A stretch of 64,000 nucleotides of DNA from a virus (Duplodnaviria; Caudoviricetes), in the IMG/VR virus record IMGVR_UViG_3300029288_001872, positions 96,001 to 160,000 of that record, one strand, 5' to 3'. Each line of letters starts with the position of its first letter. Position 1 is the stretch's first letter. The translations under genes were made by a program, and so were the position numbers. Shown here in pieces: positions 40,845 to 64,000 of this stretch. The notes under the pieces are model-generated. The model was not told the DNA's origin. It saw nothing but the letters and a program-made list of their open reading frames with translations, and did not search any database.

Positions 40845-40959
40845 GGTATGGTCGGGTCAGGTTTGGTATGGTTGGGTCTGGTGTGGTGAGGTCAGGTAGG
40901 GTTAGGTAAGGTGTGGTAAGGTGAGGGTGTAAGTCTAGAAAATTAGGCTTACACAGTTT
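40845..40959 (+). ncRNA. GGT-NN pentamer array (16 perfect units) with 3' hairpin; candidate gapped guide RNA
   Basis: NN = AT CG CA TT AT TG CT GT GA CA AG TA AA GT AA GA; stem 40927-40937 with 40944-40954, then AGTTT. Confidence 0.88.
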
Positions 40960-58784: not shown

Positions 58785-58808
58785 ACAGAAACTTTTTCTG
58801 CTGACCTA

Positions 58809-58837
58809 TTGACAAACATTGGGAAAAATTCTACAAT
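58809..58837 (+). promoter_or_regulatory. sigma70-type promoter for the RAMP gene/array locus
   Basis: TTGACA-N17-TACAAT; leader hairpin CCTGTCCCATC/GGTGGGGCAGG at about 58883-58911. Confidence 0.65.
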
Positions 58838-58991
58838 AAAGATAGTCAAAATTTTCATTTCCCATCCTCCTAAACCCCTAACCCTGTCCCATCTGAAAAT
58901 GGTGGGGCAGGAACTTTTGCCAAAAATTAGGCGCTATGTCCCAGCGTTAAACCAAGGGACTTAAACCATAAAAGAGAGAGGTAAGCAAAAA

Positions 58992-59651
58992 ATGGCAGCA
59001 AAGAAAGACGTAACTGGAATTGTTCCAAGAAAAGATGTGGCAATCCCGCCTCCACAATTTCAAACTGTTGAGTTTACAATTGTTGGTGATGCTCCTTATG
59101 TCCAACAAAGATTTTCTCAGAAGGCAATTGAGCAAATCAAGGCGGTCCAACTGGCAGGTTCCAAGAGCAAGAAAGGAAAGGCTCGCGAACCAAAAGATTT
59201 TCAAGAATGTTATGAACAAGCTAAACACATTTCGACAGAAGGCTGGTGTGGTATTCCTGCATCTTCCTTTCGTGCTGCAATGATTTCTGCTTGTCGTTTG
59301 GTTGGGTTTAAGATGACTTTGGCTAAACTTTCAATTTTCATTCCTGCTGATGGTTTTGATGTGGTTGATGGAACACCATTGATTAAGTTTTCTAAAGGCG
59401 AACCGCGCTATGTTGAACACGCTATGAGAATTCCTGGTATTGGTGGCGGAGGTACAGATATTCGCCCTCGTCCGATGTGGGACCCAGGTTGGGAAGCAAA
59501 AGTGCGTGTCACTTTTGATGAGGCGCAATTTTCCGCGGAAGATGTAACCAATTTGATGATGAGGGTTGGTATGCAAGTTGGTTTGGGTGAAGGTCGCCCC
59601 GATTCCAGAAGTAGTGTTGGTATGGGATGGGGGACTTTCCAACTGAAATAA
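58992..59651 (+). CDS. Stand-alone RAMP (Cas7/Csm3-like) protein
   Basis: Beta1 VEFTIVGDAPY; GIPASSFRAAM similar to RAMP IPGSSLKGA; C-terminal G-rich loop GLGEGRP-x5-GMGWGTF. Confidence 0.8.
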   Translation: MAAKKDVTGIVPRKDVAIPPPQFQTVEFTIVGDAPYVQQRFSQKAIEQIKAVQLAGSKSKKGKAREPKDFQECYEQAKHISTEGWCGIPASSFRAAMISACRLVGFKMTLAKLSIFIPADGFDVVDGTPLIKFSKGEPRYVEHAMRIPGIGGGGTDIRPRPMWDPGWEAKVRVTFDEAQFSAEDVTNLMMRVGMQVGLGEGRPDSRSSVGMGWGTFQLK

Positions 59652-59703: not shown

Positions 59704-60370
59704 GGCAGGCGTGACGACACAAGTTCAGATAGGGAGAGATGCGTTGGGGTGAGTCTTGGACTGTTAAGGCAGGTAAGACATGGCAAGTAAGACATGGCAA
59801 GTTGCAACCAGATATGTTATGGCGGTTTAAGTTATGGTTCGGCAGGCTATGCTAGTCGGGCTGAGGCTGGTTGAGACCCGTTAGGTTATGGCAGGTGTGA
59901 CATGACAAGTGATATACGATTAGTTGAGTTAGGTTTTGGTTGATCGTGTTATGGTTTGGCAGGCCAAGAGTGATGAGATATGTCTTGGTAGGTTAAATTA
60001 TGGCGGGGAGTATCATGACACGGCAGGTATGACGAGACGCCACGAGAGAAGACAAGGAGTGTTGCTGTGCGACTTAACAAGGCAGGCAATTCCTCCTCTT
60101 GGCTAGTCGGGGCTTGGCAGGCGTGTTGAGACTTTACAAGTTGAGTGTAATGAGTTAAGTTCTGTCACGATAGGGTTAGGCAAAGCAGGTACGACGACAC
60201 AAGTTATGGTAAGTTCTGGGTGTTACAATGTGTTGGGTTCAGGCAAGGGTGGCAGGCTATGCTAGTCAGGTTGAGATTAGTTGAGATGATTTCTGGCGAG
60301 TTAAGACATAGCAGGTAGGATGAGTTACGTCCTGATAAGGTTTGTTCTGTCCTGATTTGTCAAGGCAGGC
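59704..60370 (+). repeat. Array 1: 11 units of degenerate (GNN-NN)n pentamers delimited by (G/A)GCAGG
   Basis: Delimiters at 59704, 59768, 59841, 59890, 59958, 60022, 60081, 60116, 60184, 60251, 60310, 60364; unit lengths 4+5n or within a small indel of it. Confidence 0.9.
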
Positions 60371-60401
60371 AAGATAAATAATTAACCACAAGGAGAACTA
60401 A

Positions 60402-60890
60402 ATGATGGTAAAGAAACATTTGGATGAGTTGAACCAAATTATGGAAGAAAATGGTGGATTACTTCGAGCGGAAGATGTTGTTGAATTCGCCAAAAATCCT
60501 AAGACAACTTTGCATAATGCGTTTGAGTGGGATGATAAGAAGGCTTCTTATAAATGGAGGTTATTTCAAGCCAATCAACTCATCAGAGTTGCAGTTACTA
60601 TTCTCCCAAGAGAAAACCAAGAACCCATTATGGTTCGGCCTTTCGTCAGTTTGAAAGAAGACAGATATAATGGTGGAGGTTATCGTTCCACACTGGAAGT
60701 AATGGAAAGTCCAATTCTCAGAAAAACGCTATTGGATGAAGCTAAAGAGGATATGCAAACTTTCATGGATAAATACAAATCTTTGGAAGAACTTGCGGAA
60801 GTCTTTGTTGCAATGGAACCTTTAATTGTTCCACCACCCACTAAAGGACAAAGAAAGTATAAAAGGGTTGAACAACAATTATCAGCTTGA
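60402..60890 (+). CDS. Conserved phage protein embedded between the two arrays
   Basis: LRAEDVVEFAKNPKTTLHNAFEWDD...WRLFQANQLI; RBS AAGGAG. Confidence 0.7.
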   Translation: MMVKKHLDELNQIMEENGGLLRAEDVVEFAKNPKTTLHNAFEWDDKKASYKWRLFQANQLIRVAVTILPRENQEPIMVRPFVSLKEDRYNGGGYRSTLEVMESPILRKTLLDEAKEDMQTFMDKYKSLEELAEVFVAMEPLIVPPPTKGQRKYKRVEQQLSA

Positions 60891-60900
60891 TGTTTTATAT

Positions 60901-61264
60901 GGCAGGTATGGCACGTTTCGATTTGGTAGGACATGGTGTGTTTGGTCGCATTCTGGTACTTCAAGGCAGGTGTAACAAAGACGAGTCGAGATGAGTTCGG
61001 TTGTGGTGAGTTTTAATATGGAAAGATACGTTGAGGTTCGATACGGCAGGTAAGACAAGATAAGACAAGGAGTGGTGCTACTTGCCCCGATTTGTTAGGT
61101 TGAGGAGTTATACGGCAGGTCAGACGTGTCCGGTTGAGACAAGACATGGTGGGATATGACACGGTTTGTCGGGTTGAGATAAGCAAGGCATGGCAGGCGC
61201 GGCAGGTTGAGGCATGGCGCAATGTGACGTGGTGCGCTGGGGCAAGACAAGAAGAGACATAGCA
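60901..61264 (+). repeat. Array 2: pentamer units delimited by GGCAGG
   Basis: Delimiters at 60901, 60965, 61045, 61114, 61192, 61201 and a terminal AGCA at 61261. Confidence 0.9.
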
Positions 61265-61287
61265 ATTTTATTTTGAAGGAGAAATAA

Positions 61288-62388
61288 ATGGCAGGACCAA
61301 AGAAAAGAGAAATATCAGATACGGTAAGTCAAATCAAAGAAGTTGCAAATTCTCCTATTGTTACTGATGATTCACGGGTGGATTTCCTTGATTCTGGAAG
61401 TACATTGTTGAATTTGGCGGCAAGTCAATTTGGTAAGAATGGAGGTTGGGCGCGAGGTCGAATTATCAATATTGTCGGTGATAAAAGTTCAGGTAAATCA
61501 ATCACTTGCATTGAAGCCTGCGCTAATGCCTTCTACAATATTGGAAAGGTAAAATCAAAAATTTATCCAGATGTCCAACAAATTAATATAGTTTACAATA
61601 ATTCAGAAGGGGTTCTTGACTTCCCAATCGAAACCATGTACGGTAAAGCATTTAATGAGTCGGTCAATTGGATTCAAACGCCGATTGCAGAATCTTTCGG
61701 ACGTGACTTTCAACAACGCCTTGCTGCTTTGAAGAAAGGTGAATTTATGTTATATGTTGTTGATTCAATTGATTCTTTGGTGTCTGAGGCTGCCGCAAAA
61801 AGAATGAGTCAAGTGTTGTCAGATAAAAAAGTAGATGGTAGTTATGGTGTTGAAAAAGCAAAATTTTTTAGTTCTGAATTCTTTAATCATCTTTGTGGAG
61901 CAATGAAGGGGAAAGATGCGACATTGATTTGTGTGTCTCAAGTTAGAGAAAATATCTCCACAATCAGTTTTGGAGAACGATATTATCGCACTGGTGGAAA
62001 GGCATTTGATTTTTATAGTCATCAAGTTTGTTGGCTTGCAGTTGTTGAAAAATTAAAAAAGACATTTCGTGGTCAAGAAAGAGTATACGGTGTAAAAACA
62101 CGAGCAAGATTTAAGAAATCTAAAGTATCAAAACCTTTCAGAGAAGCAGATTTTACAATTTTATTTGACTATGGTTTAGACAATGTTTCATCATTGGTTG
62201 ATTATTATTTCGGTCCAAAAGCGAAAGAAATTGAATGGAAAAACGAAAAGTTAAAAACACAAGATTTTCTCCAGCGGCTTGATAATTCACCAGAAGATTT
62301 GGAACTTTTGAAAGACTTGGTTGAAAAAGATTGGCTTGAAATTGAAGAACATGTCAAACCGGAACGCAAACCGAGGTGGACAGATTAA
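61288..62388 (+). CDS. recA: RecA/UvsX-like recombinase
   Basis: DSGST, GDKSSGKS, VVDSI, SQVRENI, TGGKAFDFY, SKVSKPFRE. Confidence 0.93.
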   Translation: MAGPKKREISDTVSQIKEVANSPIVTDDSRVDFLDSGSTLLNLAASQFGKNGGWARGRIINIVGDKSSGKSITCIEACANAFYNIGKVKSKIYPDVQQINIVYNNSEGVLDFPIETMYGKAFNESVNWIQTPIAESFGRDFQQRLAALKKGEFMLYVVDSIDSLVSEAAAKRMSQVLSDKKVDGSYGVEKAKFFSSEFFNHLCGAMKGKDATLICVSQVRENISTISFGERYYRTGGKAFDFYSHQVCWLAVVEKLKKTFRGQERVYGVKTRARFKKSKVSKPFREADFTILFDYGLDNVSSLVDYYFGPKAKEIEWKNEKLKTQDFLQRLDNSPEDLELLKDLVEKDWLEIEEHVKPERKPRWTD

Positions 62389-63807: not shown

Positions 63808-64000
63808 GTCAACCACCCTATAACTATTAAAATGTTATGAACTTTAAGTTCGAGGTTGACCAGACTCAGCTAGAGTCACAAGACTATCGGGCTACGTTAA
63901 TTGAATCATGACACCTTGGGATGCGCGCCAGTCCCATGCTCTGTCAACTAACATTAAACAGACATACGGGGTTGAAGTCAGTGTGTTGGTTGTAAAAAGT
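63808..64000 (+). ncRNA. HEARO/IscB omega-RNA-like element, 5' part (truncated by window end)
   Basis: GTCAACC (63808) pairs with GGTTGAC (63854), followed by CAGACT, CTACGTT, GACACC..GGATGC..CCAGTCC..CTCTG, ATTAAACA, CAGTGT. Confidence 0.75.

What the first reader, a model, noticed from the sequence alone, without database searches (positions are those of the whole stretch)
60965..61191. Dinucleotides of array 2 spell conserved RecA motifs of a non-self allele, skipping every wobble base
NN were read as codon positions 1-2, with ambiguous residues resolved by eye. Unit 61114 = CA GT CG GA AA AT GG AT AC TT GG GA AA, i.e. QVRENIGITFGEK; the own recA has QVRENISTISFGER at 61939-61980. Unit 61045 = AA AA AA AA GT GC TT CC TT AG GA GT AC, i.e. 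KKNKVALPFREVT; own KKSKVSKPFREAD at 62113-62151, 8/13 identical dinucleotides. Unit 60965, allowing one extra base, gives VKDDERVDFINT(D/E)ST; own VTDDSRVDFLDSGST at 61360-61404, 8/15. The first two are closer to the canonical RecA motifs (QIREKIGVMFG, KNKVAPPF) than the phage's own gene. Inference: guides recognise NNx-NNx targets in recA of related phages, unaffected by synonymous third-position escape. They have mRNA sense, so they would pair with the DNA template strand.
Basis: partly seen in the sequence, partly recalled or inferred. Interest (0 to 1): 0.96.

Follow-up and report, generated by a model that had tools for sequence, protein, structure and literature searches.

The report
Phage VIPR guides aimed at rival recA
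The five-base repeats upstream of this phage's recA gene are guide RNAs of a VIPR system, a CRISPR-like phage system first described in 2026. Three of them spell conserved RecA motifs of other phages while skipping every third codon base, so this is a clean new example of a known kind.

Summary
The stretch 60965-61191 holds three guide units. Each starts with GGCAGG and runs in pentamers of G-(A/T/G)-(C/T)-N-N.

**Match to the phage's own recA.** Read as codon positions 1-2, the NN strings match in frame at only 58-70% of NN bases.

**Match to other phages' recA.**
- Unit 61114 matches all 26 NN bases in five IMG/VR contigs. Each hit is in frame, at the loop-L2 motif of a RecA only 35% identical to the phage's own. 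It also matches 25/26 and 24/26 in others.
- Unit 60965 reaches 25/30.
- Unit 61045 reaches 21/26.
- Guides with shuffled NN order do not reach these scores, and a shuffled pattern found nothing in the same database.

**What the system is.** This is the "1-nt skip" code of VIPR systems (bioRxiv 10.64898/2026.04.26.720920). The 219-aa gene at 58992-59651 folds as a Cas7-like RAMP, which fits Vipr.

**Locus.** The cassette (vipr, array 1, a 162-aa gene, array 2) sits between the recA promoter and recA. Two relatives lack it there.

**Self-protection.** The phage's own recA escapes unit 61114 through a one-codon insertion.

Other windows of this scan have found VIPR before. New here are recA as a natural target and the guides lying next to the phage's own resistant allele.

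The parts
58809..58837 (+). Promoter-like site (11 of 12 consensus bases). It is homologous to the promoter that lies directly upstream of recA in relatives that lack the cassette.
58992..59651 (+). vipr: a 219-aa stand-alone Cas7-like RAMP protein, the only one in the genome
   Evidence: AlphaFold model pLDDT 86. Foldseek matches to Csm3/Cmr4/type VII Cas7, probability 1.0. hhalign to the SUSP1 Vipr C-terminal G-loop region, E 9e-5. 6954 homologues, none named. Single copy in the genome.
59704..60400 (+). Array 1: about 12 GGCAGG-headed pentamer units. Their targets were not found.
60402..60890 (+). 162-aa accessory gene in the position of a vap gene (phrog_15946, function unknown)
   Evidence: It holds the same position after vipr in the unrelated phage contig L212. 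No significant fold match. Not similar to SUSP1 Vap1.
60901..60964 (+). Array 2, unit 1 (12 NN); target not found
60965..61044 (+). Array 2, unit 2 (15 NN, one extra base after pentamer 2). It targets the N-terminal RecA motif; the own copy is at 61360-61404.
   Evidence: Own gene 21/30; foreign recA 25/30 in L122, L123, L131 and L156; 19/20 over ten units in L164
61045..61113 (+). Array 2, unit 3 (13 NN). It targets the RecA motif whose own copy is at 62113-62151.
   Evidence: Own gene 18/26; L120 21/26; 2 of 200 shuffles reach 21
61114..61191 (+). Array 2, unit 4 (13 NN). It targets the RecA loop-L2 motif; the own copy is at 61939-61980.
   Evidence: 26/26 in L126-L130, 25/26 in L165, 24/26 in L121, L134 and L170; own gene 15/26
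61192..61270 (+). Trailing short unit and a fifth unit (about 11 NN); target not found
61288..62388 (+). The phage's own recA/UvsX-like recombinase (366 aa), the guide-resistant allele. It has a one-codon insertion in the loop-L2 motif at 61939-61980.
   Evidence: Pfam RecA 5e-20, PHROG UvsX-like, alignment of homologues

Best explanation
Array 2 is a tail-less array of VIPR guide RNAs (vrRNAs).

According to the published mechanism, Vipr protomers bind one pentamer each, sequester the fixed triplet and expose the NN pair. The NN pairs then base-pair with two of every three bases of one strand of dsDNA, forming a gapped R-loop that blocks transcription.

Shown here by computation:
- the array grammar
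- a Cas7-like RAMP gene beside it
- three guides that match, in frame and with the skipped base on the wobble position, conserved motifs of recA genes of other phages better than the phage's own recA

Inferred:
- The units are transcribed from the promoter at 58809 together with vipr, the 162-aa gene and recA.
- They are cut at or near the GGCAGG heads and loaded into Vipr filaments.
- On co-infection, or on meeting a resident phage, they bind and silence the rival's recombinase gene.

The phage's own recA is spared. It differs at 30-42% of the NN bases, and at the loop-L2 site it carries an extra codon that breaks the register.
For: **Grammar.** G at every fifth base, triplet G-(A/T/G)-(C/T), free NN, 11-15 units per guide.

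**Natural targets.** The exact 26-base gapped pattern of unit 61114 is found in five IMG/VR contigs, where about 3e-5 hits are expected by my own estimate. All five lie in frame in a RecA homologue at the loop-L2 motif. A shuffled pattern gave 0 hits. In 92 RecA loci the three guides reach 26/26, 25/30 and 21/26, against shuffled maxima of 21, 23 and 21.

**Unbiased scan.** A scan of every offset and phase of array 2 puts the best windows exactly in the predicted NN phase of these three units. Array 1 gives only low-complexity noise.

**Wobble blindness.** The sites in L129 and L165 differ at 11 of 13 third positions but at only 1 of 26 NN bases.

**Self versus non-self.** The own gene scores 15/26, 18/26 and 21/30, all under the 80% threshold the VIPR authors used.

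**Protein.** RAMP fold and a G-loop region that aligns with SUSP1 Vipr.

**Conserved cassette.** vipr, array, 162-aa gene, array also occur in the unrelated contig L212.

**Sister phage.** L211 (RecA 98% identical) has orthologous guides with different NN that again match foreign recA (19/20) better than its own (13-15/20).

**Published mechanism.**
Against: - There is no RNA evidence for transcription or processing of these units, and the processing site is unknown.
- Units in this array lack the 3' tail of the studied type II vrRNAs, and their fixed triplet is more degenerate than GGY.
- No exact natural target was found for units 60965 and 61045. The best are 83% and 81%, just above the published threshold, and for unit 61045 2 of 200 shuffles do as well.
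- Unit 60965 has a 6-base step that might break its register.
- The protein has no detectable sequence match to SUSP1 Vipr by tblastn. The profile match is weak (probability 60%).
- Silencing a diffusible, possibly complementable function such as RecA is not obviously harmful to a rival.
Confidence: 0.88

Rival explanations
1. RNA-guided allele exclusion or homing. Guide and resistant allele form a linked selfish module. Binding, or cutting by a partner, at the rival's recA next to the insertion point provokes repair from the VIPR-carrying genome and copies the cassette into the rival. Free-standing homing endonucleases of T-even phages work this way.
For: - The cassette is inserted precisely between the recA promoter/leader and recA, and is absent there in relatives L119 and L120.
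- The guide sites lie 70-830 bp from the insertion point.
- Solo vrRNAs elsewhere in the genome also match the gene directly upstream: A5 27/38 with z 5.1, and A3 with nine consecutive NN.
Against: - The sensitive alleles found are far too diverged for homologous repair (RecA 35-68% identical).
- The close relative without the cassette (L119, 97%) already carries the resistant allele.
- No nuclease is seen in the cassette.
- Published VIPR of this architecture silences rather than cuts.
- Across 166 arrays in other viral contigs, only 2 show a self-like match nearby.
Confidence: 0.07
2. Autoregulation. The guides bind the phage's own recA weakly, through 58-70% NN pairing, and tune its expression.
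For: The best self-hits of two guides lie in the phage's own recA, in frame. Array 2 lies in the recA leader.
Against: - Foreign alleles match much better, up to 100%.
- The own gene has a register-breaking codon insertion at one site.
- The partial self-match is what homology between the own and the targeted genes predicts.
- The published analyses found no self-hits at or above 80% NN match, the cutoff used for calling natural targets.
Confidence: 0.03
3. Chance or composition. AT-rich NN strings resemble AT-rich codon starts and the RecA reading is pareidolia. A variant is that the tract is a binding site for an oligomeric RNA-binding protein (TRAP-like) with no guide role.
For: The self-matches alone are only modestly above shuffled-order controls. 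A 20-base sub-pattern gave one hit outside any recA.
Against: - Five exact 26-base in-frame hits, all at the homologous RecA motif, against an estimated expectation of about 3e-5.
- 0 of 200 shuffles reach the observed value for two guides.
- A shuffled pattern gave 0 hits.
- The correct phase wins an unbiased phase scan.
Confidence: 0.01

Closest known systems
VIPR systems (Vipr + vrRNA), bioRxiv 10.64898/2026.04.26.720920, 10.64898/2026.04.26.720927 and 10.64898/2026.10.15.759431; type II of Escherichia phage SUSP1 is the studied example
   Same: - A small stand-alone RAMP protein.
- Guides built from 9-16 pentamers with a fixed triplet and a free NN.
- A one-base skip in the target that falls on the codon wobble position.
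- Targets in genes of competing mobile elements.
- No self-hit at or above 80%.
- An accessory gene after vipr.
- Solo vrRNAs scattered in the genome.
   Different: - The fixed triplet here is G-(A/T/G)-(C/T), not GGY.
- Units are joined head to tail with a GGCAGG head and no 3' pseudoknot tail, most like the 'staggered' arrays that the paper mentions only in a figure legend.
- The accessory protein is unrelated to Vap1.
- The protein is too diverged from SUSP1 Vipr for tblastn.
- The natural target is a core recombinase gene of other phages, not a satellite recombinase, a prophage regulator or a vipr gene.
- The array sits in the leader of the phage's own resistant allele.
VIPR arrays with non-canonical repeat units (bioRxiv 10.64898/2026.10.21.760802, Fig. 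S10)
   Same: Five-base period with a trinucleotide degenerate at one or more positions, next to a Vipr-like fold.
   Different: That survey reports no targets. The patterns named there (WGT/NN, TGH/NN) are not the one seen here.
Class 1 CRISPR backbone (Cas7/Csm3/Cmr4 filaments on crRNA)
   Same: The protein fold. One protomer per fixed step of guide RNA, with bases periodically taken out of pairing.
   Different: No repeat-spacer array, no other cas genes and no adaptation genes. The step is 5 bases with only 2 pairing, against 6 with 5 pairing.
Free-standing homing endonucleases of T-even phages (e.g. SegG, MobE)
   Same: A selfish insert between conserved genes that acts on a neighbouring gene of rival genomes while the carrier's own allele is resistant.
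   Different: Recognition here is by RNA, no nuclease was found, and the sensitive alleles seen are too diverged for homing.

Membership tests
VIPR system | Small stand-alone RAMP protein (RRM core, glycine-rich loop, thumb) not linked to cas genes or a CRISPR array | tested here: met
   Model pLDDT 86. Foldseek top hits are Csm3/Cmr4/type VII Cas7, probability 1.0, E about 1e-4. Only one such gene in the genome. No repeat-spacer array in the window.
VIPR system | Sequence homology to an experimentally studied Vipr (SUSP1 YP_009199429.1) | tested here: inconclusive
   tblastn against the phage collection does not reach SUSP1. Profile against SUSP1 Vipr aligns 65 C-terminal residues including the G-loop, probability 60%, E 9e-5.
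VIPR system | Guide made of 9-16 tandem pentamers, a conserved trinucleotide alternating with hypervariable NN | tested here: met
   11-15 pentamers per unit. The triplet is G-(A/T/G)-(C/T), looser than GGY. NN differ between sister phages.
VIPR system | Natural targets follow the 1-nt skip rule at 80% NN match or more, with the skipped base on the wobble position | tested here: met
   100%, 83% and 81% for the three guides, all in frame in recA.
VIPR system | No self-target at or above 80% NN match | tested here: met
   Best self-matches are 58%, 69% and 70%.
VIPR system | Accessory (vap) gene beside vipr | tested here: inconclusive
   The 162-aa gene keeps the same position in L211 and L212. 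It has no Pfam family, no significant fold match and no similarity to Vap1.
VIPR system | vrRNAs are expressed, processed and co-purify with Vipr; the RNP binds dsDNA | not testable with these tools
   Only DNA runs hold this sequence.
CRISPR-Cas (class 1) | Repeat-spacer array and further cas genes (Cas1/2, Cas5/6, large subunit) | tested here: not met
   No such repeats. Neighbouring genes are SSB, the 162-aa gene and recA.

The most novel reading that the evidence does not exclude
In this phage, guides are kept physically next to the phage's own guide-resistant alleles of the genes they attack: recA beside array 2, and at least one or two further genes beside tail-bearing solo vrRNAs. Guide plus resistant allele would then behave as a linked poison-antidote module. 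Recombination spreads it as a unit, and it has shaped the sequence of conserved motifs in essential phage proteins, for example the extra codon in RecA loop L2.
Probability: 0.2. Interest if true: 0.7.

Novelty: new member of a known kind. Interest (0 to 1): 0.42.

Why it matters
This is an independent, purely computational confirmation of the VIPR gapped code in a distant branch of the family: a degenerate triplet, a tail-less array and a different accessory gene. One guide has a perfect natural target.

It adds a new class of natural target. That class is the conserved catalytic motifs of a core recombinase (RecA/UvsX-like) of other large phages, where escape would need amino-acid changes.

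It also shows how the carrier protects itself, through changes in codon family and a one-codon insertion that breaks the register.

The placement of the guides next to the phage's own resistant allele is unusual. Only 2 of 166 arrays in other contigs show anything similar. This gives a testable lead on how guide and immunity stay linked in mosaic phage genomes.

Tried and rejected
- **First idea.** Before checking codon matches I thought of TRAP-like binding sites for a ring-shaped RNA-binding protein. I dropped this after the in-frame matches.
- **Rfam.** Nothing in the arrays at gathering threshold.
- **Similar DNA in the phage collection.** None.
- **Exact full patterns of units 60965 and 61045.** 0 hits in viral contigs.
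- **13-unit pattern of unit 60965 in metagenome contigs.** 0 hits.
- **11-unit pattern of unit 61045.** 0 hits.
- **10-unit pattern of unit 60965.** One hit, not in a recA, taken as chance.
- **PDB sequence search with the 219-aa protein.** No match.
- **Fold search with the 162-aa protein.** Nothing significant, only weak winged-helix-like rows.
- **Units 60901 and 61201.** No target in the own genome or in the RecA loci.
- **Array 1.** No recA targeting.
- **Is 'guide next to a self-like gene' general?** No. Only 2 of 166 arrays in other viral contigs reach z of 3 or more.
- **Sequencing runs.** No RNA holder is listed. I did not lay reads.
- **Cluster look-up of four Vipr homologues.** No names or accession numbers.

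Full report
**What is there.** The window is part of a 189,632-bp phage genome with all genes on the + strand. Two intergenic regions, 59704-60400 and 60901-61270, are G-rich and C-poor. They are built from units that begin with GGCAGG and then have a G at every fifth base. In the phase set by that G, each pentamer is a semi-constant triplet G-(A/T/G)-(C/T) followed by two free bases. The three units of the finding start at 60965, 61045 and 61114. Unit 60965 has one 6-base step after its second pentamer.

**Check against the phage's own genome.** I slid each NN string along both strands of the whole genome with a spacing of three.
- Unit 60965 scores 21 of 30 bases at 61360. This is the single best of about 380,000 positions.
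- Unit 61045 scores 18 of 26 at 62113, tied best of three.
- Both sites are in frame in the recA gene (61288-62388; Pfam RecA 5e-20, UvsX-like PHROG).
- Unit 61114 scores only 15 of 26 at 61939 without a gap and 20 of 26 if one codon of the gene is skipped.
- With shuffled NN order as the null, over +/-7 kb and all frames, these self-matches are modest (11, 78 and 295 of 300 shuffles reach them). On their own they would not carry the claim.

- Seven recA loci from IMG/VR and 80 from metagenomes were fetched by protein similarity.
- The exact 26-base gapped pattern of unit 61114 found five IMG/VR contigs. I estimate about 3e-5 hits by chance.
- In all five the hit is in frame in a RecA homologue that is 35% identical to the phage's own. 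It lies at the loop-L2 motif, which there reads QVREKIGITFGDK.
- A pattern with the same dinucleotides in shuffled order found nothing.
- Over 92 loci the best scores are 26/26, 25/26 and 24/26 for unit 61114, 25/30 for unit 60965 and 21/26 for unit 61045. All are at the homologous positions. Of 200 shuffles, 0, 0 and 2 reach these values.
- I scanned every offset and phase of array 2 with ten-unit windows. The top windows fall exactly in the predicted phase of these three units. Array 1 gives only low-complexity noise.
- The sites in L129 and L165 differ at 11 of 13 third codon positions but at 1 of 26 NN bases. This shows that the code ignores synonymous change.

**What it is.** A literature search and earlier notes of this scan led to the VIPR preprints. 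VIPR systems consist of Vipr, a small RAMP protein of phages, and vrRNAs made of 9-16 pentamers in which GGY alternates with hypervariable NN. The NN pair with dsDNA targets with one base skipped per unit, and in natural targets the skipped base falls on the wobble position. Binding assays, reporter repression and phage defence assays support this, as do cryo-EM structures. The authors call natural targets at 80% NN match or more and found no self-hits at that level.

The present locus fits this description.
- The 219-aa gene at 58992-59651 has no Pfam family and belongs to a family of nearly 7000 unnamed proteins.
- Its model (pLDDT 86) matches Csm3, Cmr4 and type VII Cas7 chains with Foldseek probability 1.0.
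- Its C-terminal strands and glycine-rich loop align with SUSP1 Vipr in a profile comparison (E 9e-5, probability 60%). tblastn does not connect the two.
- It is the only such gene in the genome.
- The 162-aa gene between the arrays (phrog_15946) holds the same place in the unrelated contig L212. There vipr (69% identical) is likewise followed by a GGCAGG-punctuated array, this gene and a second array.
- Its fold gave no significant match, and it is unrelated to SUSP1 Vap1.
- Tail-less head-to-tail units resemble the 'staggered' arrays mentioned in the first preprint. Looser triplets have been reported by others.

**Locus history and self-protection.**
- In relatives L119 (RecA 97% identical) and L120 (66%), the SSB gene is followed by a promoter, a short hairpin leader and recA.
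- In this phage the same promoter and hairpin (58809-58920) are followed by the 2.4-kb cassette and only then by recA.
- The cassette is therefore an insertion into the recA leader, or a loss in the relatives. Array 2 probably lies on the recA transcript.
- The phage's own RecA and its two closest relatives carry an extra residue in the loop-L2 motif (QVRENISTISFGER) that all other homologues lack. This breaks the register for unit 61114.
- At the other two sites the own gene differs by amino-acid changes and by switches between the two Ser or Arg codon families.
- Sister contig L211 (RecA 98%) has the same cassette, but with a truncated vipr and a shorter array 1. Its array 2 keeps orthologues of units 60965 and 61045 with different NN, lacks unit 61114 and has other guides. 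Its guides also match foreign recA (19/20 over ten units) better than its own (13-15/20). Guides therefore turn over quickly between near-identical phages.

**How it most likely works.** Shown by computation are the grammar, the RAMP gene, and the in-frame, wobble-skipping matches that are better on non-self than on self. The rest is inferred from the published system. Transcription would start at the promoter at 58809 and the transcript would be cut into units. One Vipr protomer would load per pentamer and form a gapped R-loop on the recA gene of a co-infecting or resident phage, silencing it. All three guides have coding-strand sense and so would pair with the template strand. In the published assays either strand works.

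**Rivals.**
- *Homing-like allele exclusion.* The insertion geometry makes this attractive. However, the sensitive alleles found are too diverged for homologous repair, the cassette-free close relative is already resistant, and no nuclease is seen.
- *Autoregulation of the own gene.* This is unlikely, because foreign alleles match far better.
- *Chance.* Excluded for unit 61114 and improbable for unit 60965. It is least well excluded for unit 61045.

**Guides beside self-like genes.**
- The genome also holds nine solo (GGTNN)13-21 tracts, each ending in a hairpin and a T-run.
- A5 matches the gene just upstream at 27/38 (z 5.1, 0 of 300 shuffles).
- A3 has nine consecutive identical NN in frame 80 nt upstream, though another site 1.3 kb away scores higher overall.
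- A4 gives 21/32 at the last codons of the clamp gene, which is not significant by shuffling.
- In 166 comparable arrays of other viral contigs only two show such a nearby self-like match. This arrangement is therefore special to this phage rather than a general VIPR property.

**Verdict.** The mechanism is already published, and other windows of this scan have found VIPR before. This is therefore a new member of a known kind. Its useful particulars are a perfect natural target in a core recombinase gene, a visible self-escape by codon insertion, and guides linked to the phage's own resistant allele.

Noticed in passing
window 63808-64000: HEARO RNA (the omega RNA of IscB-type HNH nucleases), 96.8 bits, cut off by the window end. 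This would be a second RNA-guided element in the same phage.
   Followed up: no
window 19703-19767 and 40845-40924; genome C1 1116, 12072, 185027, 186370, 187584, 188736, 188839: Nine solo (GGTNN)13-21 vrRNA-like tracts. Each follows a gene's stop codon and ends in a shared ...GGTAAGGTGAGGG motif, a hairpin and a T-run. Only one vipr gene serves both this strict GGT dialect and the looser G-N-Y arrays.
   Followed up: partly
genome C1 184964-185020 (outside the window) and window 19596-19622: Solo guides A5 and A3 match codon positions 1-2 of the gene just upstream. A5 scores 27/38 with z 5.1, and A3 has nine consecutive NN. A3 has an even higher overall score (21/26) at window 20999, which I did not examine.
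   Followed up: partly
L211:2083-2559: In a sister phage contig (RecA 98% identical) the vipr gene is cut short after about 157 residues and array 1 is shorter. This is either a decaying system or an assembly fault.
   Followed up: no
window 58785-58990 versus L119:2860-3000 and L120:2860-2990: The whole VIPR cassette sits between the recA promoter/hairpin leader and the recA start codon. Two relatives have promoter, leader and recA with nothing in between.
   Followed up: yes
L121:2190-2530: In one relative the gene upstream of recA ends in a run of more than 300 bases of GAA/GAG codons. This gives false high scores to purine-rich wrong-phase windows in gapped scans.
   Followed up: no
search_dna_similar hit H1, BK059895.1 31484-32080: Cyanophage Cy-LDV1 encodes a protein 59% identical to this Vipr, annotated as hypothetical. 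Gordonia phages Ecliptus, ODay and UmaThurman have 31-32% homologues.
   Followed up: no
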